From assembly GCA_964485795.1 (NCBI GenBank), contig CAZAJQ010000001.1, positions 142,014 to 206,013 on the forward strand: a stretch of DNA of 64,000 nucleotides. The letters are read 5' to 3'. The position numbers and the translations under genes are program-made. Source of the stretch: an uncultured Gammaproteobacteria bacterium (GTDB lineage Bacteria > Patescibacteriota > Patescibacteriia > VMEV01 > CAZAJQ01). The number at the start of each line of letters is the position of its first letter. Position 1 is the first letter of the stretch. Below the pieces are notes generated by a model, which saw nothing but the letters and a program-made list of their open reading frames with translations, was not told the origin of the DNA and did not search any database. Positions 9,579 through 63,782 of this stretch are shown in pieces.

Positions 9579-10046
9579 ATGTCAAAATTTCCTTCACGAA
9601 AAAATCCCACCCCGAAGTTAAGCGAAGCACATACTTCAGGGTTCACCCTAAAGTTAAGCGAAGCGCATACTTCAGGGTTCACCCTCATCGTCGCCGTCAT
9701 CATCATGACGGCCGCGTTCGTATTGATCGTGGTGCTGGGGGCAAAAAGCTTTCGATACACCAGTAGCGTCATCCAAGCTCAGATCGATCAGACGACGACA
9801 AATCTCCTCGCCGAATCATGCGCCCAGAAGGTGCTCCGCATGATCGTGGATAATTCAAATTACCCCGGAAATGAAACAATCACCAATCCCGAAGGAGATT
9901 GCACACTCTACCCGATAGCTCCCGGAGTGCCAGCCGATATCGATATTGAAGCGACAATACGCGATCATACCACGAGATTGCGCGTCACCATCGATTCAAA
10001 AACACCTCCCAATGTCATAAAATGGGAAAAATTGGAAAACTTTTAA
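9579..10046 (+). CDS. pilin-like / small membrane protein whose 5' region is built from a tandem hairpin repeat
   Basis: Its ATG lies 1 nt after the upstream stop. The N-terminal residues KLSEAHTSGFTL KLSEAHTSGFTL are encoded by two tandem copies of the 32 nt hairpin repeat. A hydrophobic helix (IVAVIIMTAAFVLIVVLG) follows but lacks E at +5. An alternative start at ATG 9711 would place the repeats in the intergenic region. Confidence 0.45.
   Translation: MSKFPSRKNPTPKLSEAHTSGFTLKLSEAHTSGFTLIVAVIIMTAAFVLIVVLGAKSFRYTSSVIQAQIDQTTTNLLAESCAQKVLRMIVDNSNYPGNETITNPEGDCTLYPIAPGVPADIDIEATIRDHTTRLRVTIDSKTPPNVIKWEKLENF
9609..9686 (+). repeat. two tandem copies of the 32 nt hairpin repeat CCCTGAAGTTAAGCGAAGCGCATACTTCAGGG (family A)
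   Basis: Near-identical adjacent copies, each able to form a 9 bp stem (CCCTGAAGT/ACTTCAGGG) with a 14 nt loop. The same element recurs at 10727, 20079 and 20521. Confidence 0.8.
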
Positions 10047-10630: not shown

Positions 10631-10726
10631 AACGAATTTATACGTTCATGCAAGACGATTTGACCGAAAGCCGTCTTTTTGTCAAAATCCCCCCACAGGC
10701 GATTTTTTTATTTTTTTGACTGAAAT

Positions 10727-10762
10727 CACCCTGAAGTTAAGCGAAGCGCATACTTCAGGGTA
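10727..10762 (+). repeat. single copy of the family A hairpin repeat, immediately upstream of tRNA-Arg
   Basis: ACCCTGAAGTTAAGCGAAGCGCATACTTCAGGGTA is identical to the consensus seen at 9609-9686. Confidence 0.8.
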
Positions 10763-10774
10763 TACCTTCTTTTG

Positions 10775-10846
10775 GCTCCTGTAGTTCAATGGATAGAACA
10801 CGGGTTTGCGGAGCCCGTGATCCAGGTTCGATTCCTGGCGGGAGCA
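10775..10846 (+). tRNA. tRNA-Arg (anticodon GCG, inferred)
   Basis: Manual cloverleaf: acceptor GCTCCTG/CGGGAGC, D-arm GTTC...GAAC, anticodon stem CGGGT/GCCCG with loop TTGCGGA, T-arm CCAGG TTCGATT CCTGG, discriminator A. The anticodon assignment was read by eye. Confidence 0.7.
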
Positions 10847-20071: not shown

Positions 20072-20078
20072 AAACGTT

Positions 20079-20150
20079 ACCCCTGCAGTAGAACGAAGCG
20101 CACACTGCAGGGTAAACCCCTGCAGTTAAACGATGCGCATACTGCAGGAT
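20079..20150 (+). repeat. two tandem variant copies of the family A hairpin repeat (CTGCAG variant)
   Basis: CCCTGCAGTAGAACGAAGCGCACACTGCAGGG and CCCTGCAGTTAAACGATGCGCATACTGCAGGA. The A-to-C change in the 5' arm is matched by a T-to-G change in the 3' arm, so the stem pairing is preserved. Confidence 0.75.
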
Positions 20151-20151
20151 T

Positions 20152-20475
20152 TCATGCGACAAATCTTAACCTCAAAACCAATCGAGACCCTGTTTTCTCA
20201 TGCAAATGAGCCAAAACTTCCGCTTCGCGCATTTTGATCTCCGAGGCGATCGACGAATTCTTCACGGATATCGCGAGACTTTGCTGACGGATATACCGCG
20301 CTTCGGCTTCTTTCGTCGCTTCTTGACCAAAAGTCTTGGCCAGCCATTTTTGAAAAACGTCCATCACCAGAAGCTTTTCCATATCTTCGCCAAGGGCATC
20401 GGTTTTCATCTTGCGCTTCAAAATATTTTTCAGAGAATCCATAGTCTTTGTTGCCAAGATGATTTCAGGTCTCAT
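20152..20475 (-). CDS. DUF721/DciA-like protein
   Basis: About 100 aa protein whose pattern (EKLLVMDVFQKW...SLAISVKNSSIASEIKMREAEVLAHL...RLVLRLRF) matches the DUF721 family usually found near replication/repair genes. Assigned from memory of the family pattern. Confidence 0.45.
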   Translation of the reverse strand: MRPEIILATKTMDSLKNILKRKMKTDALGEDMEKLLVMDVFQKWLAKTFGQEATKEAEARYIRQQSLAISVKNSSIASEIKMREAEVLAHLHEKTGSRLVLRLRFVA

Positions 20476-30473: not shown

Positions 30474-30508
30474 ACGTTCACTTTTTTTCTTAGTATAACA
30501 CAGAAGAT

Positions 30509-30538
30509 AGTACTCAGTACTCAGTGCTCAGTAGTCAG
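30509..30538 (+). repeat. heptamer tandem repeat (TACTCAG)x4
   Basis: AGTACTCAGTACTCAGTGCTCAGTAGTCAG between the glycosyltransferase start and the glyS stop. The same heptamer array occurs at 40077 and 51313. Confidence 0.75.
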
Positions 30539-34018: not shown

Positions 34019-34471
34019 ATGTCCATTCTCGCGGTCAACAAAAGAGCCCGTTATGATTATGAAATCCTTGAAACTCTTCAGGCCGGTTTGGCATTGCTCG
34101 GCCACGAGGTGAAATCAGCAAAATTGGGGCAAGTGAGTCTGAAAGGATCATATGTGACGATCCGAAACAACGAAGCCTATCTTCTCAATGCCCATATCGC
34201 GGCATATCGTTTTGCGTCACCCCTTGTCTCCTTGGATCCGGTGCGTACGAGAAAGCTCCTGCTCAAAAAATCCGAAATAAAAAAACTCATCGGCAAACAA
34301 AAAGAAAAAGGTCTTTCGCTTATTCCGATAAAGCTTTACACAAAAAAAAACCTTATCAAACTAGAGTACGGAGTCGGAAAGGGAATGAAAAAAAGCGATA
34401 AAAGCGAACGCAGCAAAAAAAGAAAAACCAACAACAACATCCGCCGGGAGATGAGTGTACGGAGGCGGTAA
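34019..34471 (+). CDS. smpB: SsrA-binding protein SmpB
   Basis: Strong match to the SmpB fold (ARYDYEILETLQAGLALLGHEVKS ... LLNAHIAAY ... RTRKLLLKKSEI) and a basic C-terminal tail. Confidence 0.9.
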   Translation: MSILAVNKRARYDYEILETLQAGLALLGHEVKSAKLGQVSLKGSYVTIRNNEAYLLNAHIAAYRFASPLVSLDPVRTRKLLLKKSEIKKLIGKQKEKGLSLIPIKLYTKKNLIKLEYGVGKGMKKSDKSERSKKRKTNNNIRREMSVRRR

Positions 34472-34785
34472 AAAGAGCCCGCCCTCCGTCATCCTCCGCT
34501 TACCGCCAAAGCCCTCCCCCCTTCTACGAATACGTGCGCTTGCCGCGAAGCCCCCCCCTCCGTCATCCTCCGCTGCGCTACGGATGACACCTCCCCTTGT
34601 CCAAGGGGAGGATAGAGTACGAAAGAGTTTCCTCCCCTTACACAAGGGGAGGTGCCCGAAGGGCGGAGGGGTGAGCTCCGTCGATAGGTGAAGCAGTTCC
34701 GCGAAGAGCGGAGGCCTGCCATCCAAAGTCTGCCTCAGACAGGGACAGTCTTGGGATGGTTGACTTTCCTCCCCTCTCCCTGTAT
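34472..34785 (+). repeat. GC-rich structured repeat cluster (family G), copy 1, between smpB and ssrA
   Basis: Contains hairpins CTCCCCTT(GTCC/ACAC)AAGGGGAG and GCCCGAAGGGC, and the GGAGGGGTGAGCTCCG module shared with loci at 55.4 kb and 61.4 kb. GC content is far above the local average. Confidence 0.8.
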
Positions 34786-34841
34786 AGTTTCCTTAATAAG
34801 CGCTGTGCTTATTGTTTTTTTTCGTTTCCTTGGAAACATTC

Positions 34842-35238
34842 GGGGATGTTTGGATTTGACGGAATGACTCGATAGGTTTCTATGCAAGACGAGCTCGCCA
34901 TGATGCTCGCAAATCTCCGTGGCACATTATAAGTGCAAACTTATTCGCAAAAGCAAAAGATGCCGTGAAAACTTTTTTTGCGGTACCAAGCTTCAGCATG
35001 GCTATTGCCTAAACGCATCGGCCCATCGCGGCTTTTGAGGATTCATAAGGAGCCCGCGGTGCAATATTCATGAATCTCAGGAAATATGTTCGTCACGCCA
35101 TATTCTCCGAAAATTTTGTGACTGTGATGCGGTCGTTTTGCTTTCTTTCTCAGATCGCATCAAGAATGAAAGAAAGCTACTCTTGAAGAAATAGAATTCT
35201 ATCCATTCCAGACGCGGGTTCGATTCCCGCCATCTCCA
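34842..35238 (+). ncRNA. ssrA: tmRNA (ssrA)
   Basis: 5' end GGGGATGTTTGGATTTGACGG closely parallels E. coli GGGGCTGATTCTGGATTCGACGG. 3' tRNA-like domain GGACGCGGGTTCGATTCCCGCCATCTCCA (T-arm plus acceptor 3' strand pairing with the 5' GGGGATG). Candidate tag frame from resume codon GCA at 34935 (preceded by AUAAGU, like E. coli AUAGUC) to TAA at 35010: ANLFAKAKDAVKTFFAVPSFSMAIA. A shorter tag AVPSFSMAIA is an alternative. Confidence 0.8.
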
Positions 35239-35282
35239 TTTTTCGCTCTTCGACGAAGAAGGGCTTTATAAATACTTTATCC

Positions 35283-40076: not shown

Positions 40077-40106
40077 AAGTTCTCAGCAGTCAGTACTCAG
40101 TTCTCA
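40077..40106 (+). repeat. heptamer (TACTCAG-type) repeat in the gap between the two VirB4 ORFs
   Basis: AAGTTCTCAGCAGTCAGTACTCAGTTCTCAG. The same short intergenic segment also contains the GAGAACTTA direct repeats. Confidence 0.6.
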
Positions 40107-40148
40107 GAAATAAGTTCTCAATGCTCGGCAGTGAGCTTGAAGATGGGG

Positions 40149-48760: not shown

Positions 48761-49025
48761 TAATCTATTAACACAGAGATGTCAAACACGCTTTTTTTGC
48801 CTGTAGTTAAGGCTTTTTCAGAGCATTTACTAAACAGATTTAAAACATTTTCATAATTTTGCAGCGCCGAAAAACTTTTCTCTCCTCTCTGACATATCAT
48901 TCCCCATATAATAAAATTCAAGATAAAAAAATAAGCGAGTCACGTGAGGTTTCTCTTCGCATCTGATACAATAAGGCAACATTCTCTTTTCCCTTCATGT
49001 ATGAAGATTTGGAATGGAGGAATCT

Positions 49026-50801
49026 ATGCACACCGCCACAGTCAACGCCATTCCGAACACGACGCAAAAAAGCTCGCTGCTTGAGCTTCTTTCGCGTCAC
49101 TTCGGCTATACGATGTTTCGGCAAAACCAGCAAGATATCATCGAGAGCATCCTCGCGGGAAAAAACACGGCGGTGATCATGCCCACGGGTGCCGGGAAAT
49201 CCCTGTGTTATCAGCTTCCGGCCATGATTTTGCCGCATCTCACCGTCGTCGTTTCTCCCCTCATCTCGCTGATGAAGGATCAGGTGGACAGTCTCAACGC
49301 ACGGGGAAATCGATCGACGTTTATCAACAGTTCCCTTTCGTATGCCGAACAAACGGCTCGACTCGACGCGACTCGGAGCGGATCGTTCAAGCTTCTCTAT
49401 GTCGCTCCCGAGCGATTCGGCAATCAAGAATTCCTCGCATCGCTCAAAACCATTCCCCTATCGCTTTTTGTGATCGACGAAGCGCATTGCATCTCCGAAT
49501 GGGGACATGATTTTCGCCCCTCCTATCTGCGGATCAAAGACGCCATCGGCGAACTGAAAACCGCGGGGCAGTCGTTTCCCGTCAGCGCATTGACGGCCAC
49601 CGCCACACCGGAAGTGAAGCGTGACATCATCAAACAGCTGGCTCTGGAAACCCCCCGCATCTTCGTGTCGGGATTTCGCCGCGACAATCTCCGGCTGGAA
49701 GTGAAGCGCACGTCGGCTTTCCAAAAAATCGATTATCTTCTGCCGGCTTTGCGAAGCGCGCAGGCCGACGGAAGCGCCATCATCTATGCCGGAACGCGAA
49801 AAAAAGTCGAGGAAACCGTCATGGTTTTGCGGGAATACGGCATACCAAGCGACGGATACCATGCCGGCATGGAAAACGAAGAACGAAAAAAAGTTCAAGA
49901 AGATTTTCTTACGGGAAAAACGAAGGTCATGGTGGCGACCAACGCTTTCGGCATGGGCATCGACAAGCCGGACATACGACTCGTCATACACCACGATATG
50001 CCCGGAACTCTCGAAAATTATTATCAGGAAATCGGACGCGCCGGTCGAGACGGGAAGCCGAGTCGATGCATCTTGCTCTCCAGCGCCGGAGATCGTTACC
50101 TGCGCGAATTTTTTCTTGCCGGAGAAAATCCCTCCCCTCAAACGATCAAAGAAGTGTACCATTTTCTCATCCGCGAACACAGCCGCCACAATCACGCTGC
50201 GACCGGCGAATCGACTCTCTACGTGACGGGCACGGACATAGCCGGCAGCGTATCCGATGAAATCAATGAAATGGCCATTTCCACGGCTCTCAAAATACTT
50301 GAAAAGGAAGGATATATCGAACGTCTCAGCGAAAAAGACAATCCCGCTTCCGCGACGCTACTCCGTCAACCCGAAGAAATCCTCGCGGCCGTCGGCAATC
50401 GCGCCAAAAAACAAATCGAAGCGATCCGCATTTTCGTCTCCAGCTACGGAGCGGCAAAAAGTCGAGAAATCCGATTTTCACTCGATGATGTCGCCTCACT
50501 CATGAACGTGAAAAAAAACTCCGTGCAAGCCGCGCTCAACGCCATGAAAAAAAATCATCTCATCGCGTATGAACCTCCCTTCCGAGGACGCGGCATCAAA
50601 ATGCTCAAAACCTCGGGGCTCAACATGAACTTTGAAGCTCTAGAAGAAAAACGCAAACGCGACTACGGCAAACTCGATCTCATGGAAGCCTACGCCCATC
50701 ACTCCGGCTGCCGGCACGCTTATATCCTCGAATATTTCGATGAAAAAAATATTCTGAGATCGTGCGGAAGCTGTGATAATTGTCTCATGAAATCGCTATG
50801 A
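49026..50801 (+). CDS. recQ: second RecQ-family helicase (helicase core plus RQC zinc/winged-helix region, no HRDC)
   Basis: MPTGAGKSLCYQLPA, VIDEAHCISEWGHDFRPSY, QEIGRAGRDG and a C-terminal Cys cluster (CRHAY...CGSCDNC). Start moved to the internal ATG 49026. Confidence 0.9.
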   Translation: MHTATVNAIPNTTQKSSLLELLSRHFGYTMFRQNQQDIIESILAGKNTAVIMPTGAGKSLCYQLPAMILPHLTVVVSPLISLMKDQVDSLNARGNRSTFINSSLSYAEQTARLDATRSGSFKLLYVAPERFGNQEFLASLKTIPLSLFVIDEAHCISEWGHDFRPSYLRIKDAIGELKTAGQSFPVSALTATATPEVKRDIIKQLALETPRIFVSGFRRDNLRLEVKRTSAFQKIDYLLPALRSAQADGSAIIYAGTRKKVEETVMVLREYGIPSDGYHAGMENEERKKVQEDFLTGKTKVMVATNAFGMGIDKPDIRLVIHHDMPGTLENYYQEIGRAGRDGKPSRCILLSSAGDRYLREFFLAGENPSPQTIKEVYHFLIREHSRHNHAATGESTLYVTGTDIAGSVSDEINEMAISTALKILEKEGYIERLSEKDNPASATLLRQPEEILAAVGNRAKKQIEAIRIFVSSYGAAKSREIRFSLDDVASLMNVKKNSVQAALNAMKKNHLIAYEPPFRGRGIKMLKTSGLNMNFEALEEKRKRDYGKLDLMEAYAHHSGCRHAYILEYFDEKNILRSCGSCDNCLMKSL

Positions 50802-51316: not shown

Positions 51317-51347
51317 GTACTGAACACAAGTACTCAGTACTCAGTAC
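51313..51347 (+). repeat. heptamer (TACTCAG) repeat forming a 9 bp hairpin, overlapping the exonuclease stop codon
   Basis: CTGAGTACT GAACACA AGTACTCAG TACTCAGTACG. Confidence 0.7.
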
Positions 51348-51371
51348 GCTGGAATCATTATCCGCCACTTC

Positions 51372-53111
51372 TCACTCCAAAACGGACAACACGTCATTAC
51401 CCTCACCGCGGATATCCTCACCCGTGAAACGATCTTTGGCGATGATTGTGACGTCTTCTACAAGCGGAAAAGGTTTATTGACTTGCGAGACTTTTTCGGG
51501 AGAAAACTCCACTTCAAAGGCCAGTCCCACGCGCGAACCGAAATTCACGTTTGGGAGGCTCCAGACGAGTTGACGGCTTTGCGCGTCAAAACGAATCTCA
51601 CCCCCGCCGGCCTTGCTTTGCCCCGTAAAACTCACCTGCGGCACCAACGTCGAACTTACCGCGACATTTTCAATGTCATTGGGAAACGATTCAAGCTCAA
51701 AGAATATCCAATACTTGGTCTTTTTCCCGACCTCGGGAGGCAATGCGCCGCGCCCGAGCTGTTCTCCGTTCAGGCTGAAATATCGGGCATTCCCAAGGAT
51801 GCCGACCACACTGCTAAGCTTGAAAAAAATCGGCGTCGCCGGAATCTTCCACCGTGCGGGTTCTCCTTCCTTCGAATACGACACATGGCTTGAAAGCCCA
51901 ATCTCCTTTCCCGAAAATCGTAAAACCTCATCGGCTTTGAATGTTCCCGTATTCAAGGTGAACGCACCGGAAATTGTCTCGCCGACGGCCACATCTCGCA
52001 ATACAAACACTGATTTCGCCGCATCGCTTCGCAATGCGACACCTTCCGGCGTTTCAAAACTCATCAACGGATGGGAATCAAAAGAGATTTCAACGTTTTT
52101 CAGCGTTTTATTTTCATTGTTTCGCAAGGTAAAATTGAGAATTTGACTTTGACCGGAACTCAAAGTGCGAGTTTGCGGAAACAATTCAAACACCACGTTC
52201 GGATACCGTATGGGAACCGTAAAAACTTTTTCTTCCTGCTTTTGATTGCGGCCGTTTTCAAAAATCAAGCTTTGAAAAATAAACTGTTTTTCTTTATCGC
52301 CTTGGGCGTCCATGCGACCCCGTATGCGAATTTCACCTTTTTCGCGCTGATCAAGCGCGTCGATGATCCATCCTTCATCCGTGAGAAGCGGCTCGGAATG
52401 CAACACTTCAAAGGCCGGCGGGAAAACGGGGAAAATGCGGAAATTTTTTTGCGAAAATTGAGACGAAGTGTTTTCATAGCCGATGGAAATGTCAAACTCC
52501 TGCTTATCCACCAATTCCGAAGGCATGTTCACGTCAAAGGAAAACACGGAAGACGTCAGAGAAAAAATGACGAAGAAAAGTTTTTTTTCAAAATGAATGG
52601 AGCGCGGATCGGTTTTGTAATTCAAAAAAGCTCGCAAATGCTGATCCTTGCCGACATCGCCGATCATTTTCCCGGAAATCGTGAATTGCCCTCGCTGCCC
52701 GGGATCAAGCGTTCCGAGAGGGTAGCTGTTTTTTTCGCCGATAACCGATTCCGGCGCGGAGCGAATCGAAGTAAAGCCTTCAGGAAATAAAAATTCAATA
52801 AACGCGTCATGCAAGATCGTATCGGCGTTTTCATTGGCATATGAAACTTCAAACGCCACTTCTCCCCCGCTTTGCGCTTCGGAGGTCAAAAGTCGCAAGG
52901 ACGCATCCACGCGCTCGGCCACGAGAGCCCGGCCGTACCAGCCGAAAAGAAAAACGATAAACGCCGACAACAGCACGATGATGGTCAATAAAAAAACATC
53001 CGCAAAAAGATGCTTGGATCCGTGGATGTGATCCGGATGATAATGCCGATGATATCTTTTTTTGAAGTAGGCTTTCGAAAATGCAAACATAAAAAATAAT
53101 CTTTCTCTCAC
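51372..53111 (-). CDS. hypothetical membrane-anchored extracellular protein (579 aa)
   Basis: Basic N-terminus, one transmembrane helix (VFLLTIIVLLSAFIVFLFGWY), then beta-rich repeats. No catalytic motif. Confidence 0.5.
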   Translation of the reverse strand: MRERLFFMFAFSKAYFKKRYHRHYHPDHIHGSKHLFADVFLLTIIVLLSAFIVFLFGWYGRALVAERVDASLRLLTSEAQSGGEVAFEVSYANENADTILHDAFIEFLFPEGFTSIRSAPESVIGEKNSYPLGTLDPGQRGQFTISGKMIGDVGKDQHLRAFLNYKTDPRSIHFEKKLFFVIFSLTSSVFSFDVNMPSELVDKQEFDISIGYENTSSQFSQKNFRIFPVFPPAFEVLHSEPLLTDEGWIIDALDQREKGEIRIRGRMDAQGDKEKQFIFQSLIFENGRNQKQEEKVFTVPIRYPNVVFELFPQTRTLSSGQSQILNFTLRNNENKTLKNVEISFDSHPLMSFETPEGVALRSDAAKSVFVLRDVAVGETISGAFTLNTGTFKADEVLRFSGKEIGLSSHVSYSKEGEPARWKIPATPIFFKLSSVVGILGNARYFSLNGEQLGRGALPPEVGKKTKYWIFFELESFPNDIENVAVSSTLVPQVSFTGQSKAGGGEIRFDAQSRQLVWSLPNVNFGSRVGLAFEVEFSPEKVSQVNKPFPLVEDVTIIAKDRFTGEDIRGEGNDVLSVLE

Positions 53112-55243
53112 TTCCCCTCGATCCGAAACACGTCTCTGGTCATGACGACGATATCCAGCATACCGTCATGATCCATATCCGACAAGGCCAAAGTGATTTC
53201 TGACGTGCCGTTGTTTCCAAAAGCTTGAAAGGATTCGCCGCGATGGCCGTCCATGTCAAAAACCGCGACTTGGGAATCGCCTCCGAGAACGGGACTGGCG
53301 ACGATTTCATCACGGCCGTCGCCGTCAAGATCGCCGGACACGACATGCACTCCGCCGCGAAACGTCGAGTCAAACGCGAAAAATCCGGCGTTCACCGCGC
53401 GTCCGTCCGGTCTGAACATGCGCACATGAGGCCCGCCCCCGACACCCGCGCCCGTGATGATTTCTTTTTGCCCGTCGCCGTCAACGTCTCCCACGGCGAC
53501 ATTCACCCCTCCGCGGAAATTTTTCTCATACGCGAAAAAACCGTCCGAAAGCAATTTTCCGCCGGTATTGAAAATCCTCACATGCGGGCCGCCGCCCTCA
53601 CCCGCGCCGGTAACGATCTCAAGGGTTCCGTCTCCTTCAAGATCGGCGACCACAAAATGCACCTCGCCGGTATAAGCTTCTCCGTACGGAAAAAATCGAA
53701 GCGTCAGCTCCCCGTTTTCTTCAAAGATGCTGATGGCGCCGTTTTGCGCCGTGAGGATTTCTTTGATGCCGTCAAAATCAATGTCCTGCTTGAGCACGGC
53801 TTCGTCTTCTTTTTGCGTCGATTCATAGGCGAAAAAACCGTTGCGAATCACCTCTCCGGACGCGTCGAACACTCTGGCAAAGGCGCCGTTTTCAAACACC
53901 GATGACGCGATTTCATTGAGAGGGTGCAAAAGCAGTATGCCGTCTTGGCCGTTGAGCGTCAGCTCGGAAACGATGCGTCCGTCATTGATATCCGGATCTT
54001 GACCGCCTCGTAATTTTTCATGGTCATAGGGCAAGGCGATGACGCGTTCGTCATAGGTGGAATTCACGAAAACGCTTCCATAGTCAAAATCGCGTCCCCA
54101 TACCCCCCTGCCAGAGGCAGGCAGGCTTCCGGAGGCATCCTTGCCGAGTGGAAACATGTTTTTCGCATCCGTTGTCGGAAATCCCAAATTCGCGTCATAC
54201 TCGTCATACCGCCACACATAGGTGCGGTCTTTGGGTCCGTTGTCAAAATTAAAATACGCATTTCCGAGCAAGGAGCTGCCCAAGGCGTATCTCATGGCGC
54301 GATAATCGTCGAATTTTCCGGAATCATTGACATCAGCGTTGAAAAAAACGGCTCTGGGACTTTTTCCAAAGCTGTCTTTTTCGATCTCTCGATAATTTTT
54401 CATGGCGCCGTTCCAACCGCCGCGCTCAAGATAGGGAAAATCCTCAAAACCTCGGCCATTGAGATGATCGGTGTAATAATTTCCAATGGTATTGCCGATG
54501 AGCAGGTATTCGTCTCCCACGATTTCGCGCATTTTCTTGAAAAAACCTTGATGACCTTCTTGCCAACGCCGGTCGATGAATGCGGCTTCATCGGCTTTTC
54601 CGTCATGGTCGATATCGATGCCTGCGGCCGACCACGATATCGAGTCCCATACCACGTCAAAAAAGATGCCGTCCCACAGCCCGCTTCCAAGCATTTGAAC
54701 CGCAAGATAGGTCGCGAGAAAATCGCCGTAAGTTTGTCCCTCCTTGTTTTTTCCGCTGAGATTCATAACCACGTTTTTTGGCCAAAGGCTGATTTCCTTA
54801 TTTTCCGCCGTGTTCAGATACCACTCCTCCGACATTTTTGAAGCCAAATCATGGTAGATTCCCTCGCGATCGATTTCGACGTCTTTGAGCCCGTACTTGG
54901 GAAACTCGGTGAGATTGAAATACGCCAAGAGTATGATATCGGGGTTTTTCTTCCGAAGCGCGGTCAAAAGATCCTTTCCCACTTCTTGGGCGGCGGGATG
55001 GAAAATCGCCACATCATATTTTGAAAATTCATCGGCAAGGTCGGCTCCGAGGTGATACTGGGAGCTGGAAAGGTACATCATGCCCGTACGTGGAAAATCG
55101 TGTTTTACTATCGACTCTTTCCAGTTTTGCGCAAACGCTGGGGCCATTCCCTGCGGGAAACTCGCGGAAACGAAAAAAACGCCCAGAAAAATGGGGCGAA
55201 GGAGTTTCATGAAAAGGCTGTTTTCACGGAAAAAAGAGATCAT
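53108..55243 (-). CDS. secreted protein with C-terminal FG-GAP/VCBS-type repeats and an N-terminal putative glycoside-hydrolase-like domain
   Basis: Signal peptide and four calcium-binding-type repeats (DGDGTLEIVTGAGEGGGPHVRIF, DGDGQKEIITGAGVGGGPHVRMF, DGDGRDEIVASPV, DHDGMLDIVV). The N-terminal approximately 400 aa are TIM-barrel-like; that assignment is weak. Confidence 0.6.
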   Translation of the reverse strand: MISFFRENSLFMKLLRPIFLGVFFVSASFPQGMAPAFAQNWKESIVKHDFPRTGMMYLSSSQYHLGADLADEFSKYDVAIFHPAAQEVGKDLLTALRKKNPDIILLAYFNLTEFPKYGLKDVEIDREGIYHDLASKMSEEWYLNTAENKEISLWPKNVVMNLSGKNKEGQTYGDFLATYLAVQMLGSGLWDGIFFDVVWDSISWSAAGIDIDHDGKADEAAFIDRRWQEGHQGFFKKMREIVGDEYLLIGNTIGNYYTDHLNGRGFEDFPYLERGGWNGAMKNYREIEKDSFGKSPRAVFFNADVNDSGKFDDYRAMRYALGSSLLGNAYFNFDNGPKDRTYVWRYDEYDANLGFPTTDAKNMFPLGKDASGSLPASGRGVWGRDFDYGSVFVNSTYDERVIALPYDHEKLRGGQDPDINDGRIVSELTLNGQDGILLLHPLNEIASSVFENGAFARVFDASGEVIRNGFFAYESTQKEDEAVLKQDIDFDGIKEILTAQNGAISIFEENGELTLRFFPYGEAYTGEVHFVVADLEGDGTLEIVTGAGEGGGPHVRIFNTGGKLLSDGFFAYEKNFRGGVNVAVGDVDGDGQKEIITGAGVGGGPHVRMFRPDGRAVNAGFFAFDSTFRGGVHVVSGDLDGDGRDEIVASPVLGGDSQVAVFDMDGHRGESFQAFGNNGTSEITLALSDMDHDGMLDIVVMTRDVFRIEGK

Positions 55244-55406
55244 ATCTAAACCTAAGGCAAGGGAAATTTAATGCAAAATTGAAAATAAATTATACAATAA
55301 AATAATAAAAAAAGCAACACTCTTCGAAAATATACAAAAATAACTGAAAAAAAGAAGGATATTGAAAGAAAATTATACCATAGAAATGAGGTTTTCATTA
55401 TTTCAC

Positions 55407-55690
55407 CGCTTACAAACGATGCCGCCACTCCGCCTACCGACGAAGCACCACCCCTGCCAGAGGCAGGCCTCCGTAAAGGAGCGCTCGTTTCGAAGCAAGG
55501 TATATGCCGCTTATCGCCGAAGCACTACCCCTCTGCCCTTCGGGCATCTCCCCTTGTCCAAGGGGAGGTGGCCGGAGGCCGGAGGGGTGAGCTCCGTGAA
55601 CATGGAGCTTACCTTGTCCGAACCGGAGGCCTGCCTCTGGCAGGGGTGAGGCTTCGTCGATAAACGGGGAGTGTCCCGTCGATACGCGGA
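55407..55690 (+). repeat. GC-rich structured repeat element (family G), copy 2, bounded by 33 bp terminal inverted repeats
   Basis: Left arm CGAAGCACCACCCCTGCCAGAGGCAGGCCTCCG. Right arm is the reverse complement of CGAAGCCTCACCCCTGCCAGAGGCAGGCCTCCG. Internal module CGAAGCACTACCCCTCTGCCCTTCGGGCATCTCCCCTTGTCCAAGGGGAGGTGGCCGGAGGCCGGAGGGGTGAGCTCCGTGAACATGGAGCTTAC. Confidence 0.8.
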
Positions 55691-55718
55691 AAAAAAATAA
55701 AAGCCCATACGAGTATGG
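55691..55718 (-). terminator. putative rho-independent terminator downstream of the minus-strand gene 55743..56798
   Basis: CCATAC GA GTATGG hairpin preceded by an A-run, which is a T-run on the minus strand. Confidence 0.45.
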
Positions 55719-55742
55719 ACTTTTATAATGAACGAAATTGAA

Positions 55743-56798
55743 TTATTTCTTGCACTTTTCATGCACTCTCTTCAGAGTGCAAAACTCTTTGACTACTTCA
55801 ATGAGAGCCGACACAAACTGGAGACATATCTCCTTTTCTTGTCTTAACATTAACTTGGTCAGCTCATGCGCATCTGATATTTCTTTTTTTTCGCGATTAA
55901 AAGATATCTGAAGCGTCTTTTCCTGCGCGTTCAAGGCTATTGTTTTGTCTTGTGCAGCCTTCTGCTCAAGCTCATTTTTTTGCTTCACAAGAGCCTCGTT
56001 TTGACCTTGTTCAAGTACCCTTTTTTGCGCTAACAGAATCTCACCATGATTTTTTTCGAGAGCCTTTTTTTGAGCCTCGAGAGCTGAAGATTTTTCTTTT
56101 TCAAGATCACTCTTCTGCTTTTGAAGTGCAACGGATTGTTTCGTGCTGAACTTTTTGTGAAGCCAATGATCGGTATTATCAAAGACTCCATTCAGTTCAA
56201 GTTTGAAAGCAGCTTCTAATTGATTTTTTTGCTCGGTCAAAGCATCTTTCTTCTTTTCGAGAAAGAAAGCTTGAACTTGATGTCCGGGATCAGACACGAC
56301 CTTTTTCAGCTCATCTTTTACAGCTTTCGTTACGGCATCCTGCTTTTCATCGGAAATTTTTTTCGACAAAGCATGGGAGGGATCAGCAAGTATCTTTCTA
56401 AATTCGACATCGGCATCAAATTTCGCCTTGATACTTTCTAACTTCTTCACCACCTCTTCTCTTTTTGCAATATCCTTTTCTCGATCCCCAAGCTTCACCT
56501 CTTTAAGCTCCACCGAGGCTTCACGTTCTGCGAGGATATTGTCCTGATTTTTTTTCTGAGCTTCAAGAAACTCCAGAACAAGCTTCTTGACGTCCGCATG
56601 CTCGGAATTCGTGTCAAAAATCTTCAATTGCTTCATGACTTTTTCAAGGTTTGCATTCTGATCTTTCAAAAACTTCACCTTATTTTCAGCAGCAATCCTT
56701 AACTTTTTTTCGTTTTCCAAGATTTTAGTCTCTTCATTCCCGAAAATACTTGAAAAACACCACAACACAGCACAAAAACTAAATACAACCTTTTTCAT
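55743..56798 (-). CDS. secreted K/E-rich coiled-coil protein
   Basis: Signal peptide (FSFCAVLWCFSSIFG), then heptad-rich charged sequence throughout. Confidence 0.5.
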   Translation of the reverse strand: MKKVVFSFCAVLWCFSSIFGNEETKILENEKKLRIAAENKVKFLKDQNANLEKVMKQLKIFDTNSEHADVKKLVLEFLEAQKKNQDNILAEREASVELKEVKLGDREKDIAKREEVVKKLESIKAKFDADVEFRKILADPSHALSKKISDEKQDAVTKAVKDELKKVVSDPGHQVQAFFLEKKKDALTEQKNQLEAAFKLELNGVFDNTDHWLHKKFSTKQSVALQKQKSDLEKEKSSALEAQKKALEKNHGEILLAQKRVLEQGQNEALVKQKNELEQKAAQDKTIALNAQEKTLQISFNREKKEISDAHELTKLMLRQEKEICLQFVSALIEVVKEFCTLKRVHEKCKK

Positions 56799-61315: not shown

Positions 61316-61420
61316 AATAGATTTTTTTTATAAAATGAACATTTACAAACTTTTGAACTATGCTTTTTATCATATTTTTATGATTTCGTCAAATTCAGCT
61401 CGTCTAAGATCATCTATCGG

Positions 61421-61852
61421 TGAAGCAACACACTGCTTACCATCGAAGCCCCACCCCTCTGCCTTTCAGGCATCTCCCCTTACACAAGGGGAGGTGGCCG
61501 CAGGCCGGAGGGGTGAGTTTCGTGAACATGGGAGCTTAACGTATCCAGGCCGGAGGGGTGAGTTTCGTGAACATGGGAGCTTAACGTGTCCCGAGGTTGC
61601 GCTCCATGGATGAGTGCCTTTTCAACGTTCACTCCCCTGCTTGCCACCGAAGCCCTACCCCTCTGCCTTTCAGGCATCTCCCCTTGTCCAAGGGGAGAAA
61701 TTCATAGTGGTACGGGTTTCCTCCCCTTACACAAGGGGAGGTGGCCGCAGGCCCGGAGGGGTGAGTTTCGTAAACATGGGAGCTTAACGTATCCAGGCCG
61801 GAGGGGTGAGTTTCGTGAACATGGGGATTACCATGTCCCCGGAGGGGTGTGC
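61421..61852 (+). repeat. GC-rich structured repeat cluster (family G), copy 3, containing an internal approximately 200 bp segmental duplication and 43 nt tandem sub-repeats
   Basis: Two consecutive copies of the module CGAAGCCC(C/T)ACCCCTCTGCCTTTCAGGCATCTCCCCTT(ACAC/GTCC)AAGGGGAG...GGCCGCAGGCC GGAGGGGTGAGTTTCGTGAACATGGGAGCTTAACGT, each followed by a second GGCCGGAGGGGTGAGTTTCGTGAACATGG unit. Confidence 0.8.
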
Positions 61853-61951
61853 TAAACATTTACATGTTTCCTCGTAGTCGTGACTCGTCCTAAATAAAAA
61901 CACCGATATTCCTCCAAATACCGGTGCTAATGATTTTACTCAAAAAAAAAT

Positions 61952-62915: not shown

Positions 62916-63782
62916 TTATTCCGGATAATGGTGGACATCCTTCCACCATTGAGAATTTTTCCCATTTTTTCCTTCAAATATCTTCTTTTCCGAAGACAAT
63001 TTTGAAGGTTGGGGTACGATGGGAGAGATATATTGGTAAGTGATTTCCCCCCAGCGCTTATGAGCCATTTTGAGCAGCTTGATTCGATATTCCCTAGAAC
63101 GATTGGGAACATAGAGAACTACCCCATCTCCTGCTACTCTGATGAATGTGAACAGCTGTGCCCATGGCTCCTCTCCAAGGCCATATTTCTGACTTGCAAG
63201 TTTCTCGCCTTTGTAAGCACCCCCTGCAAGCCATTTCTTTCCCCTCTCGGAATGGAGCTGCTTGAGATTCTGAGGAGCTTTTTCAAAAAAGCAATAAGCA
63301 TAGTGGCATTCTCCGAAGATTGAAGCGGCCAACCTGATCTTGGCATTTCTATCTTCATAACCTTTGTTTTGAAGATGGAACCCAATTGCCTCCTCGCCAT
63401 TTTTTCCGTTACTGATGACTAAATACGGATAGTCATCAGCCCCCTTTTCAGCTCCCGGATTCTTCACATATTGATCCTCATTATTTGTCTCTGAAGGATC
63501 CGTTTCTTTTTTTTCAGCAACGGGCGCAGCATCTTTTTTGAATTCAGGCTTTGAAATTTCGGAAGATTTTTTGCCTTCAGTGGAACCTTCTTTTTTTGCT
63601 GCAATCGTTGGAGCGGCTTCTTTTTCAGGAGCTTTCAGTGGTTCAGGCTTTTTTTCTAAAACCTTTTCTTCCTTCTTGACTACAGGAGCATCTTTTTTTT
63701 CTTCTTGCTTTGCTACAACAGGAATATCTTTTTTTTTTTTTTTCTTGACTTCATTCGAAGCTTCCTGTTTTTTTGAACCCAC
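62916..63782 (-). CDS. hypothetical protein (K/E-rich low-complexity N-terminus, globular C-terminal domain)
   Basis: 288 aa ORF. The N-terminal approximately 110 aa are lysine/glutamate-rich. Confidence 0.45.
   Translation of the reverse strand: MGSKKQEASNEVKKKKKKDIPVVAKQEEKKDAPVVKKEEKVLEKKPEPLKAPEKEAAPTIAAKKEGSTEGKKSSEISKPEFKKDAAPVAEKKETDPSETNNEDQYVKNPGAEKGADDYPYLVISNGKNGEEAIGFHLQNKGYEDRNAKIRLAASIFGECHYAYCFFEKAPQNLKQLHSERGKKWLAGGAYKGEKLASQKYGLGEEPWAQLFTFIRVAGDGVVLYVPNRSREYRIKLLKMAHKRWGEITYQYISPIVPQPSKLSSEKKIFEGKNGKNSQWWKDVHHYPE

What the first reader, a model, noticed from the sequence alone, without database searches (positions are those of the whole stretch)
55407..55690. Copy 2 of the GC-rich element has 33 bp terminal inverted repeats (MITE-like architecture)
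CGAAGCACCACCCCTGCCAGAGGCAGGCCTCCG at 55438-55470 and its near-exact reverse complement at 55618-55650 bracket about 150 bp of the shared GC-rich module. Each arm is itself internally palindromic (CCTGCC AGA GGCAGG). This is the architecture of a non-autonomous transposable element or of a very long RNA hairpin. It lies between two convergently terminated minus-strand envelope-protein genes.
Basis: seen in the sequence. Interest (0 to 1): 0.6.

Follow-up and report, generated by a model that had tools for sequence, protein, structure and literature searches.

The report
Nested palindromic repeat with triplex-motif core
The inverted repeat is real, but it is the outer shell of a nested palindromic, non-coding GC-rich repeat in a Parcubacteria genome; the repeat's centre is a BoxC/PIT-like sequence able to fold into a DNA triple helix, a motif found here in several bacterial phyla, and nothing tested shows a classical transposon.

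Summary
The 33-nt inverted repeat exists, at 55441-55473 and 55624-55656 (2 mismatches). It extends to 44 nt, and the whole 55404-55690 island folds as one long nested hairpin.

The arms are not transposon-style termini:
- Palindromic symmetry continues outside and inside them.
- No target-site duplication is present at any boundary.
- The full 33-mer has no other copy in the window, 87 fetched loci or JGI metagenome contigs.
- No transposase was found.

The arms align with the 5' and 3' halves of the family's ordinary unit. Copy 2 is therefore a unit nested inside a degenerate unit.

The unit core (55526-55589) matches the design of a class II intrastrand purine-motif triplex, as in E. coli BoxC/PIT/TM_ECO. 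It has a pyrimidine strand, a loop, a purine strand, a hairpin linker, and a third strand that mirrors the purine strand.

The same architecture recurs in Flavobacteriaceae, Rhodothermales, Clostridia, Patescibacteria and Gammaproteobacteria. The linker hairpins vary freely, and the third strand co-varies with the duplex in the mirror sense.

It is mostly intergenic, shows no orientation bias in a small sample, and is absent from viral contigs and Rfam. I rate it a new variant of a known kind. Function and mode of spread are inferred, not shown.

The parts
55404..55690 (.). Whole copy 2: a GC-rich (64%) nested palindromic intergenic element that folds as one long hairpin
   Evidence: GC island; DNA and RNA folds, z = -10.4 and -14.3
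55430..55473 (+). Left arm (33-mer at 55441-55473). It comprises the unit head GCCTACCGACGAAGC, then CACCCCT, then the small hairpin CCTGCC-AGA-GGCAGG, then CCTCCG. It is homologous to the 5' half of an ordinary unit.
   Evidence: alignment A3
55624..55667 (+). Right arm (33-mer at 55624-55656, 2 mismatches): the inverted copy of the left arm. It is homologous to the 3' half of an ordinary unit (GGAGG, hairpin, GGGGTGAG, GCTTCGTCGATA).
   Evidence: alignment A4
55489..55502 (+). Inner palindrome layer, left half (TTCGAAGCAAGGTA). It pairs with 55610-55623.
   Evidence: sequence; fold
55610..55623 (+). Inner palindrome layer, right half (TACCTTGTCCGAAC)
   Evidence: sequence; fold
55509..55525 (+). 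Head of the inner unit (GCTTATCGCCGAAGCAC), the family's conserved end motif
55526..55533 (-). Third-strand segment for the minus strand (reads GAGGGGTA on the minus strand; 8/8 mirror match to AAGGGGAG). On the plus strand it is the Watson-Crick partner of 55582-55589.
55534..55546 (+). Small linker hairpin TGCCC-TTC-GGGCA. It is loop 2 of the minus-strand motif.
55548..55567 (+). Central pyrimidine/purine hairpin: Y = CTCCCCTT, loop = GTCC, R = AAGGGGAG
   Evidence: All six hairpins of this kind in the 64 kb lie in the three islands.
55569..55580 (+). Loop 2 of the plus-strand motif: T plus the hairpin GGCC-GGA-GGCC
55581..55589 (+). Plus-strand third-strand segment GGAGGGGTG, the mirror image of the purine strand AAGGGGAGG (8 of 9 allowed triplets)
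55589..55610 (+). Side hairpin GAGCTCC-GTGAACAT-GGAGCTT, a module also present in copy 3
55697..55726 (-). Intrinsic-terminator-like hairpin (13 pairs plus a T run) of the upstream minus-strand gene 55743-56798. It lies 7 nt beyond the element's right end.
34440..34790 (+). Copy 1 of the family, between the smpB stop and the tmRNA promoter-like site. It has two Y/R hairpins (34590, 34631) and head/tail inverted ends at 34546-34562 / 34664-34680.
61420..61860 (+). Copy 3 of the family. It has three Y/R hairpins (61474, 61677, 61720) and a 45-nt tandem duplication carrying the third-strand segment.

Best explanation
Copy 2 is a non-coding DNA repeat built as a nested palindrome. It belongs to a GC-rich mosaic family specific to this Parcubacteria lineage, with three islands in the 64 kb.

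The family's unit has a central pyrimidine/purine hairpin (CTCCCCTT-loop-AAGGGGAG). On each side of it lies a small linker hairpin, then a segment (ACCCCTC on the left, GGAGGGGT on the right) that is the mirror image of the hairpin's stem strands, then a clamp (GCTTAYC..CGAAGC and its complement).

Read 5' to 3' on either strand, this is the design of a class II intrastrand purine-motif triple helix: Y, loop, R, linker, third strand. When the DNA is single-stranded, the G-rich tail can lie antiparallel to the purine strand, forming G*G-C, A*A-T and T*A-T triplets. This is the architecture of E. coli BoxC / PIT / TM_ECO, but with a different sequence and a hairpin in place of the 3-nt second loop.

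The 33-nt 'arms' are the two halves of an outer, degenerate unit of the same family. A complete unit sits at its apex.

Inferred, not shown: transiently single-stranded DNA (at replication or transcription, or by cruciform extrusion) folds into hairpin or triplex; polymerases stall and switch template; this creates and reshuffles inverted, nested and tandem copies. The elements persist in the dead space between a terminator and the next promoter.
For: Shown here:
1. Arm anatomy. The arms align with the 5' and 3' halves of ordinary units (A3 and A4). The head/tail motif CGAAGC-N2-3-CACCCCT occurs only in the three islands, 5 times forward and 7 times reverse. Copy 1 has the same inverted ends.
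2. Palindromy extends inside and outside the arms.
3. All 6 Y/R hairpins of the window lie in the islands. Of the 12 hairpin-strand instances, 9 have a perfect 7-nt mirror third strand within 60 nt. Forty dinucleotide shuffles gave means of 0.6 hairpins and 0.05 such motifs.
4. Cross-genome recurrence. A scan of 185,579 species genomes used only CTCCCCTTNNNCAAGGGGAGGTG. It gave 83 instances in 75 loci from Flavobacteriaceae, Rhodothermales, Oscillospiraceae, Patescibacteria, Gammaproteobacteria and others. Of these, 67 carry GGAGGGGT (at most 1 mismatch) within 70 nt downstream. Conservation ends sharply at the motif's borders.
5. Mirror covariation. Variants with other duplex sequences carry the matching mirror tail, for example CCTCTCCTT/AAGGAGAGG/GGAGAGGTT, CCTCCTCTT/AAGAGGAGG/GGAGGAGTT, CCTTTCCCT/AGGGAAAGG/GGAAAGGGT and CCTCCTTT/AAAGGAGG/GGAGGATT. 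In a permutation test, 18 of 60 instances had a perfect mirror tail. The null mean was 2.9 (maximum 6 in 300 permutations), and the direct-repeat rule gave 5.
6. Third-strand composition. Opposite duplex G it is G in 97% of cases. Opposite duplex A it is A 136, T 191, C 21, G 17, as the purine motif allows (instances were pre-selected for at most 1 mismatch).
7. Loop 2. There are 93 distinct sequences of at least 10 nt. They start with TG in 74 and end with C in 73 of the loops of at least 8 nt, and 76% fold better than 95% of their shuffles. This is free sequence with conserved pairing.
8. Context. Motif centres are depleted from long open frames: 32/83 against 86% background, P = 2e-23. There is no orientation bias relative to flanking genes (11 same, 10 opposite). 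They favour convergent gaps over divergent ones, 7 to 1.
9. In copies 2 and 3 the element lies beyond the intrinsic terminator of the upstream gene.

From the literature (PMC4666352):
- BoxC/PIT/TM_ECO is 5'-CCCTCNCCC N3-6 GGGNGAGGG N3 GGGNGAGGG.
- It is intergenic, has no strand bias and has no associated transposase.
- It forms a stable triplex in vitro (CD, NMR).
- It also occurs in palindromic configuration.
- It marks variable loci.
- Purine-motif triplexes form in DNA, not RNA.
Against: - No triplex was demonstrated here. For TM_ECO itself, double-stranded DNA and in vivo DMS footprinting gave no triplex signal.
- In this genome the third-strand segments on the two sides are Watson-Crick complementary to each other. 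An ordinary long hairpin or cruciform therefore explains the local sequence without a triplex. The triplex argument rests mainly on the other taxa, where no such partner is seen within 150 nt for most copies.
- The loci were collected with one fixed duplex sequence. The variants tested are by-catch from the same genomes and are not phylogenetically independent.
- The mirror tail keeps a 5-7 bp shifted Watson-Crick match to the pyrimidine strand, so a weak alternative-pairing model is not fully excluded.
- How copies spread is unknown. Conserved inverted unit ends would also suit a trans-acting enzyme.
Confidence: 0.6

Rival explanations
1. It is a non-autonomous mobile element (MITE, or a REPIN/PATE-like element) whose inverted ends are recognised by a transposase encoded elsewhere. 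This could be a TIR transposase or, more plausibly, a TSD-less HUH/Y1 enzyme of the RAYT or IS200/IS605 type that acts on hairpins in single-stranded DNA. Copy 2 would then be one element inserted into another.
For: - Multiple diverged copies (87-90% over 50-97 nt) sit in three intergenic gaps.
- All units share conserved inverted ends, CGAAGC-N-CACCCCT.
- The nested unit-in-unit arrangement is typical of self-targeting mobile repeats.
- The two arms are more alike (31/33) than paralogous units are.
- Short-read assemblies break at the arm (Logan contigs end at 55621).
- REPINs and IS200/IS605 derivatives make no target-site duplication, so its absence does not count against that subtype.
Against: - No TSD.
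- The 18-nt inner part of the arm has no other intergenic copy.
- The unit head is absent from JGI metagenome contigs.
- No transposase in the window or in 10 kb upstream.
- The core motif is absent from 2.9 million viral contigs.
- Across genomes the constraint is on structure (free hairpin sequence, mirror covariation), not on sequence identity as recent transposition would give.
- For BoxC/TM_ECO no mobility genes were ever found.
Confidence: 0.22
2. It is a structured RNA: a long hairpin transcribed from the intergenic region that acts as an sRNA, an mRNA 3'-end stabiliser like REP sequences, or an RNase III substrate.
For: - Very stable RNA fold (-181 kcal/mol, z = -14.3).
- Conserved pairing with free sequence in the linker hairpins.
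- Location at the 3' ends of genes, with convergent gaps preferred over divergent ones.
- Copy 1 lies between the smpB stop and the next promoter-like site, so it may be in the smpB 3' UTR.
Against: - No Rfam family reaches threshold in the window or in 8 carrier loci. The best sub-threshold hits are chance microRNA hairpins.
- In copies 2 and 3 the element lies downstream of a strong intrinsic terminator.
- No orientation bias relative to transcription: 11 same against 10 opposite.
- The conserved 3' tail has no Watson-Crick partner in most taxa. It follows a purine-motif rule that, according to the literature cited, does not form in RNA.
Confidence: 0.1
3. The mirror-related G-rich segments are binding sites for a host protein (a nucleoid, replication or repair factor). 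The hairpins only space them, and no triplex is involved.
For: Conservation is sharply bounded to two G-rich blocks. REP/BIME elements are known (own knowledge) to bind gyrase, IHF and Pol I.
Against: The third strand co-varies with the duplex sequence in different genomes. A fixed protein site would not do that. A and T are used interchangeably opposite A. Distribution over five or more phyla with different sequences argues against one protein specificity.
Confidence: 0.05

Closest known systems
BoxC / PIT (potential intrastrand triplex) / TM_ECO elements of E. coli and other Proteobacteria and Cyanobacteria (Hoyne et al. 2000, as cited in PMC4666352; Holder et al. 2015, PMC4666352)
   Same: - Class II order on one strand: pyrimidine strand, short loop, purine strand, second loop, G-rich reverse-Hoogsteen strand, with 8-9-nt stems.
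- G/C-rich, multi-copy and strictly intergenic.
- No strand bias and no associated mobility genes.
- Also occurs as inverted (palindromic) pairs.
   Different: - Different sequence: CCTCCCCTT/AAGGGGAGG/GGAGGGGTT against CCCTCNCCC/GGGNGAGGG/GGGNGAGGG. The TM_ECO pattern has 0 matches in the window, and blastn finds no match in 5,426 E. coli genomes.
- The second loop is usually 'T' plus a 10-40-nt G...C-closed hairpin instead of 3 nt. That is beyond the loop limits of the published searches (1-6 and 0-10 nt).
- Found here in Parcubacteria and other Patescibacteria, Flavobacteriaceae, Rhodothermales and Clostridia.
- In this genome it is two-sided and embedded in extra palindromic layers.
REP / BIME / REPIN elements with RAYT transposases (own knowledge)
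   Same: Short GC-rich extragenic palindromes; mosaic and inverted-pair arrangements; location at 3' ends of genes; no target-site duplication.
   Different: No conserved GTAG-type head. No RAYT or Y1 transposase was detected (weak). REPs have no mirror-repeat third strand.
Bacterial MITEs (e.g. Correia, ERIC, RUP, BrickBuilt; own knowledge)
   Same: Under 300 bp, non-coding, with inverted ends, able to fold into a long hairpin, multi-copy and intergenic.
   Different: No TSD. The arms are not terminal and the full arm is single-copy. No autonomous partner was found. The units are modular and nested rather than discrete.
H-DNA-forming mirror repeats (intramolecular triplex in duplex DNA; described in PMC4666352)
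   Same: Homopurine/homopyrimidine mirror symmetry; purine-motif triplets.
   Different: Here the three segments lie on one strand, separated by loops, and the duplex part is a hairpin. Folding needs single-stranded DNA rather than supercoil-driven strand dissociation.

Membership tests
Class II intrastrand purine-motif triplex motif (PIT / BoxC / TM class) | 5' pyrimidine tract, loop, then complementary purine tract forming a Watson-Crick hairpin of at least 7-8 bp | tested here: met
   CTCCCCTT-GTCC-AAGGGGAG at 55548-55567. Six such hairpins in the window, all in the three islands.
Class II intrastrand purine-motif triplex motif (PIT / BoxC / TM class) | 3' third strand antiparallel to the purine strand, obeying G*G-C, A*A-T and T*A-T (mirror rule) | tested here: met
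   GGAGGGGTG at 55581-55589 (8/9); minus strand GAGGGGTA (8/8). Excess over shuffles. Mirror covariation across variants.
Class II intrastrand purine-motif triplex motif (PIT / BoxC / TM class) | Short second loop (3 nt in TM_ECO; at most 6-10 nt in published searches) | tested here: not met
   Loop 2 is 12-14 nt here and 8-60 nt in most relatives, folded as a hairpin. Only some Patescibacteria copies have a 3-nt loop, TGA.
Class II intrastrand purine-motif triplex motif (PIT / BoxC / TM class) | Actual triplex formation by the single strand (CD, NMR, melting) | not testable with these tools
   Shown in vitro only for TM_ECO, and not seen there in vivo.
E. coli BoxC / TM_ECO sequence family | Consensus CCCTCNCCC N3-6 GGGNGAGGG N3 GGGNGAGGG | tested here: not met
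   0 matches in the window. No blastn match of 55509-55612 in E. coli genomes.
MITE | Terminal inverted repeats at the element's ends | tested here: inconclusive
   The inverted repeat exists, but palindromy continues beyond it on both sides. The outer 15 nt is shared by all units.
MITE | Target-site duplication flanking the element | tested here: not met
   No direct repeat at boundaries 55441/55656, 55430/55667 or 55404-6/55690.
MITE | Several copies with the same ends, with filled and empty sites among strains | tested here: inconclusive
   The full arm is unique in the window, the loci and the JGI metagenomes. Only 64 kb plus 10 kb of the genome was accessible. No syntenic relative exists: the nearest homologue of the flanking gene is 44% identical. 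The sister MAG's contig ends at window position 48703.
MITE | Autonomous partner (a transposase gene with the same ends) | tested here: not met
   None among the window's annotated or scanned ORFs, nor in the loci.
REP / REPIN (RAYT-mobilised) | Conserved 5' tetranucleotide (GTAG-like) plus imperfect palindrome, with a RAYT gene flanked by REPs | tested here: not met
   No such head in the units.
Described structured RNA family (Rfam 15) | Match at or above a family's gathering score | tested here: not met
   Only tmRNA and two tRNAs in the window. Sub-threshold chance hits in the element. Nothing but one tRNA in 8 carrier loci.

The most novel reading that the evidence does not exclude
The hairpin-linked Y-R-R* motif is a previously unrecognised, cross-phylum class of genomic DNA element. 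Its third strand co-varies with its duplex in the mirror sense. That would be comparative-genomic evidence that an intramolecular DNA triple helix is itself under selection in bacteria, including CPR/Patescibacteria. The fold might also drive the element's own propagation by stalling replication and causing template switching, which would generate the nested, inverted and tandem copies seen here.
Probability: 0.25. Interest if true: 0.75.

Novelty: new variant of a known kind. Interest (0 to 1): 0.5.

Why it matters
Potential intrastrand triplex repeats (BoxC/PIT/TM) have been known since the 1990s, but their function is unresolved and there is no in vivo proof of folding.

If the mirror covariation holds in an unbiased survey, it gives triplex DNA the kind of evolutionary evidence that base-pair covariation gives RNA helices. 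It would also extend the class to phyla and loop architectures that the published searches (loops of at most 6-10 nt) could not see.

Practically, these GC-rich nested palindromes break short-read assemblies of CPR genomes (Logan contigs end at the arm). They should not be annotated as ORFs, MITEs or sRNAs without further evidence.

Tried and rejected
- Rfam, at gathering and permissive thresholds, on the element and on 8 carrier loci: nothing relevant.
- Arm 22-mer and unit-head pattern in JGI metagenome contigs: 0 hits each, and both scans are now used.
- Core pattern in IMG/VR viral contigs: 0 hits.
- E. coli genomes by blastn, and the TM_ECO pattern in the window: no match.
- Strain presence/absence comparison: failed.
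  - The sister MAG GCA_016204025.1 (99.9% identical) has its contig end at window position 48703.
  - Logan contigs carrying neighbouring genes are short and stop in or before the repeats.
  - Exact look-ups of the flanking GHL15 protein found no contig on record. One further look-up, of the 288-aa protein at 62916-63782 near the window's end, tried to extend past that end and also found nothing.
  - The closest homologue of the flanking GHL15 protein is only 44% identical.
- Ten kb upstream of the window, taken from the sister MAG, holds no further copy.
- Coding potential was rejected. Linker lengths are not multiples of three, and the element is palindromic.
- An SD/anti-SD translational switch was considered and dropped. 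No start codon follows the motif, it occurs in Bacteroidota, it lies beyond terminators, and it has no orientation bias.
- Alternative Watson-Crick pairing of the tail with the pyrimidine strand explains only 5-6 of the 8-9 conserved positions.
- A pyrimidine-motif (class IV) reading of the complementary strand was rejected. Only 136 of 365 positions opposite A would fit it.
Full report
OBSERVATION

The 33-mer CGAAGCACCACCCCTGCCAGAGGCAGGCCTCCG is at 55441-55473. Its reverse complement, with two mismatches, is at 55624-55656. None of 100 dinucleotide shuffles of the window gave any match.

The pair extends to 44 nt at 89% complementarity, with exactly 150 nt between the arms. Each arm contains CCTGCC-AGA-GGCAGG. 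The island 55404-55690 is 64% G+C in a window of about 46%.

The two neighbouring genes are both on the minus strand, so they are not convergent. One is a GHL15 + FG-GAP putative glycoside hydrolase at 53108-55243. The other is a coiled-coil protein without Pfam hits at 55743-56798.

SOURCE

Exact-protein look-ups place the window in a groundwater MAG labelled 'Parcubacteria group bacterium'.
- The flanking protein is on an NCBI contig of 210,515 bp.
- A sister MAG, GCA_016204025.1, is 99.9% identical over 22 kb, but its contig stops at window position 48703.
- Independent Logan assemblies are 100% identical and end at 55621, three bases before the right arm. De Bruijn graphs are expected to break at inverted repeats (own knowledge). 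This also argues against an artefact of a single assembly.

THE ARMS ARE PART OF A NESTED PALINDROME, NOT TERMINI

As single-stranded DNA or RNA, the 305 nt around the element fold into one long hairpin: -93.8 kcal/mol (z = -10.4) and -181.1 kcal/mol (z = -14.3). Pairing continues outside the arms, to about 55406/55690. It also continues inside them (55489-55502 with 55610-55623, then the core).

The same family occupies two other intergenic gaps, 34440-34790 and 61420-61860.
- Every unit begins with GCTTAYC-NN-CGAAGC-N2-3-CACCCCT and ends with its complement.
- There are 5 such heads and 7 tails, all inside the three islands and none elsewhere in the 64 kb.
- Copy 1 shows the same inverted ends.

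Alignments A3 and A4 show that the left arm, and the reverse complement of the right arm, align with the 5' halves of ordinary units. The right arm aligns with their 3' halves, down to the CGTCGATA that follows copy 1. Copy 2 is therefore a complete unit sitting at the apex of an outer, degenerate unit.

Only the inner 18 nt of the arm (the CCTGCCAGAGGCAGG hairpin plus its flank) is peculiar to it.

TESTS OF THE MITE READING
- No direct repeat is present at any candidate boundary.
- No second copy of the 33-mer (up to 6 mismatches) or of its 25-nt inner part (up to 4 mismatches) exists in the window or in the 87 fetched loci. The only other matches are Logan contigs of this same locus.
- The 22-nt arm core and a degenerate unit-head pattern are both absent from JGI metagenome contigs.
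- No transposase was found among the scanned or annotated ORFs of the window or in 10 kb upstream.
- tblastn with two Y1 transposases found nothing in about 650 kb.
- A strain presence/absence test was not possible.

THE CORE

The unit centre reads ACCCCTC | TGCCC-TTC-GGGCA | T | CTCCCCTT-GTCC-AAGGGGAG | GT | GGCC-GGA-GGCC | GGAGGGGTG (55527-55589).

I scanned one genome for each of 185,579 species with CTCCCCTTNNNCAAGGGGAGGTG only. This gave 75 loci (83 instances). They come from Flavobacteriaceae (Maribacter, Aurantibacter, Croceitalea, Eudoraea and others), Rhodothermales, Oscillospiraceae, several Patescibacteria lineages, Gammaproteobacteria MAGs, and Bradyrhizobium and Rahnella.
- In 67 of the 83 instances, GGAGGGGT (at most 1 mismatch) follows within 70 nt. 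The chance expectation is about 0.02 per instance.
- It is separated from the hairpin by a stretch of 1 to 48 nt that is different in almost every copy.
- Conservation stops sharply at (T)C before the hairpin and at GGAGGGGT(T/C) after it.

The tail is not the complement of anything nearby in most taxa. It is the mirror image of the purine strand: AAGGGGAGG reversed is GGAGGGGAA, and the tail reads GGAGGGGTT. That is exactly the purine-motif rule G*G-C, A*A-T / T*A-T, with the third strand antiparallel to the purine strand.

LITERATURE

This architecture is the 'class II intrastrand triplex' of Hoyne et al. (2000) and Holder et al. (2015, PMC4666352). Its best-studied case is E. coli BoxC / PIT / TM_ECO, 5'-CCCTCNCCC N3-6 GGGNGAGGG N3 GGGNGAGGG. 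According to that paper:
- The motif is intergenic and shows no strand bias.
- It has no mobility genes nearby.
- It has no promoter or terminator activity.
- It blocks polymerase in vitro.
- It forms a stable triplex as an isolated strand (CD, NMR), but no triplex was detected in duplex DNA or by in vivo DMS footprinting.
- It also occurs as palindromic pairs.
- It marks loci of elevated variability.
- Purine-motif triplexes do not form in RNA.

They would have missed the hairpin-linked form. Our sequences are not in that paper's text or in its held supplements. No later paper on such elements turned up in the library.

TESTS OF THE TRIPLEX-TYPE CONSTRAINT

1. Mirror covariation. In the fetched loci, hairpins with other stems carry the matching mirror tail:
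   - CCTCTCCTT / AAGGAGAGG / GGAGAGGTT
   - CCTCCTCTT / AAGAGGAGG / GGAGGAGTT
   - CCTTTCCCT / AGGGAAAGG / GGAAAGGGT
   - CCTCCTTT / AAAGGAGG / GGAGGATT
   - CCCCTCCT / AGGAGGGG / GGGGTGGT
   With at most 3 instances per distinct purine strand, 18 of 60 hairpin-strand instances have a perfect mirror tail. When tails were permuted among different hairpins the mean was 2.9 (maximum 6 of 300). A direct-repeat rule gave 5.

2. Third-strand composition. Among 121 unique instances, the third strand opposite G is G in 688/706. Opposite A it is A 136, T 191, C 21, G 17. The free A/T choice fits the purine motif. It does not fit a pyrimidine-motif reading of the complementary strand. These instances were pre-selected for at most one mismatch.

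3. Loop 2. It begins with TG (74) and ends with C (73). The 93 distinct sequences of at least 10 nt form G...C-closed hairpins, and 76% are more stable than 95% of their shuffles.

4. The window itself. It holds 12 hairpin-strand instances, 9 with perfect mirror tails. Dinucleotide shuffles gave means of 0.6 and 0.05.

5. Genomic context. Motif centres avoid long open frames: 32/83 against 86% background, P = 2e-23. Among the 29 intergenic instances that could be classified, there is no orientation preference relative to flanking genes (11 against 10). Convergent gaps are preferred over divergent ones, 7 to 1.

6. Position relative to terminators. In the window, copies 2 and 3 lie just beyond the intrinsic terminators of the upstream minus-strand genes (55726-55697 and 61928-61899). 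Copy 1 lies between the smpB stop and a promoter-like site before tmRNA.

7. Other libraries. The core is absent from 2.9 million viral contigs and from Rfam.

WHAT IS SHOWN AND WHAT IS INFERRED

Shown:
- The inverted repeat.
- The nested modular anatomy.
- The homology of the arms to the unit halves.
- The class II triplex design on both strands.
- Its recurrence across phyla, with mirror covariation and free linker hairpins.
- The intergenic, orientation-neutral placement.

Inferred:
- That a triplex actually forms.
- That hairpin or triplex folding on single-stranded DNA stalls replication and promotes template switching.
- That such events produced the inverted outer shell, the 45-nt tandem duplication in copy 3, and possibly the stray 18-mer in the neighbouring gene.

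In this genome the two third-strand segments also pair with each other. A plain cruciform is therefore a sufficient local explanation, and the triplex argument leans on the one-sided relatives in other taxa.

VERDICT

The 'MITE with 33-bp TIRs' interpretation is only partly supported. The element is best described as a nested palindromic member of a lineage-specific mosaic repeat family. Its core is a hairpin-linked variant of the known BoxC/PIT class of potential intrastrand triplex motifs.

A REPIN-like, TSD-less mobilisation remains the main rival (about 0.2). A functional RNA is less likely (about 0.1).

Noticed in passing
window 54105-54122 (+), inside the minus-strand gene 53108-55243: An exact 18-mer of the arm's inner hairpin (CCCCTGCCAGAGGCAGGC) lies in the coding region of the adjacent GHL15/FG-GAP gene, and the similarity continues after a 4-nt indel. 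My estimate of the chance expectation is about 1e-5. It encodes ...SLPASGRG... in a variable loop where this protein is about 6 residues longer than its homologues. This suggests copying between gene and repeat, for example by template switching.
   Followed up: partly
window 9607-9686, 10726-10769, 20078-20158: A second palindromic repeat family: ACCCTGAAGT-TAAGCGAAGCGCAT-ACTTCAGGGT, as 36-nt tandem copies. It also carries CGAAGC. One copy abuts the tRNA at 10775-10846. The Logan contig L083 diverges from the window at 10760, inside that copy, and continues into a Fic gene.
   Followed up: partly
window 61501-61591 and 61753-61825: A 45-nt unit carrying the third-strand segment (CAGGCCGGAGGGGTGAGTTTCGTGAACATGGGAGCTTAACGTATC) is tandemly duplicated (2 copies, 97%) in copy 3 and recurs 250 nt downstream. 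One Y/R hairpin therefore has several candidate third strands.
   Followed up: no
window 34440-34790: Copy 1 fills the gap between smpB (34019-34471) and the tmRNA gene (34842-35241). A promoter-like TTGACT-17-TATAGT site at 34760-34788 sits at the element's 3' edge.
   Followed up: partly
L048 1454-1520 and 2161-2215 (Parcubacteria MAG DAIBYH010000001.1): Triplex-type motifs nested inside the second loop of other triplex-type motifs. For example, TCCTCCCCT-aagata-AGGGGAGGA-[CTCCTCCCT-ttca-AGGGAGGAG]-AGGAGGGGT. Nesting therefore recurs in another CPR genome.
   Followed up: no
L011 4200-5100 (Maribacter sp. 2307ULW6-5): Three tandem GC-rich units of about 340-400 nt, downstream of a gene end. 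Each carries the hairpin-linked motif with an identical 25-nt linker. At least 9 copies of the motif were fetched from this one genome.
   Followed up: partly
L009, L010, L023, L058, L071 (Bradyrhizobium and an alphaproteobacterial MAG): The same CTCCCCTTTTTCAAGGGGAGGTG hairpin occurs without the mirror tail. It is preceded by a different conserved hairpin (GGTTTGCGC...GCGCAAACC) and by ATCCCCAC. This is apparently a different repeat family sharing the hairpin.
   Followed up: no
L030 5435-5560 (Rahnella woolbedingensis): A BoxC/TM_ECO-like motif with a 3-nt second loop (CCCTCCCCT-gcga-AGGGGAGGG-ttg-GGGTGGGGT) lies about 100 nt from the hairpin matched by the scan.
   Followed up: no
window 30495-30538, 40078-40135, 51329-51358: Short runs of a 7-nt repeat (CAGTACT / AGTWCTC) at three separate sites (family D5).
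   Followed up: no
window 156-2021 and 49014-50801: Two RecQ-family helicase genes in one 64-kb window, sharing a 47-nt stretch at 89% DNA identity (552-598 / 49473-49519).
   Followed up: no
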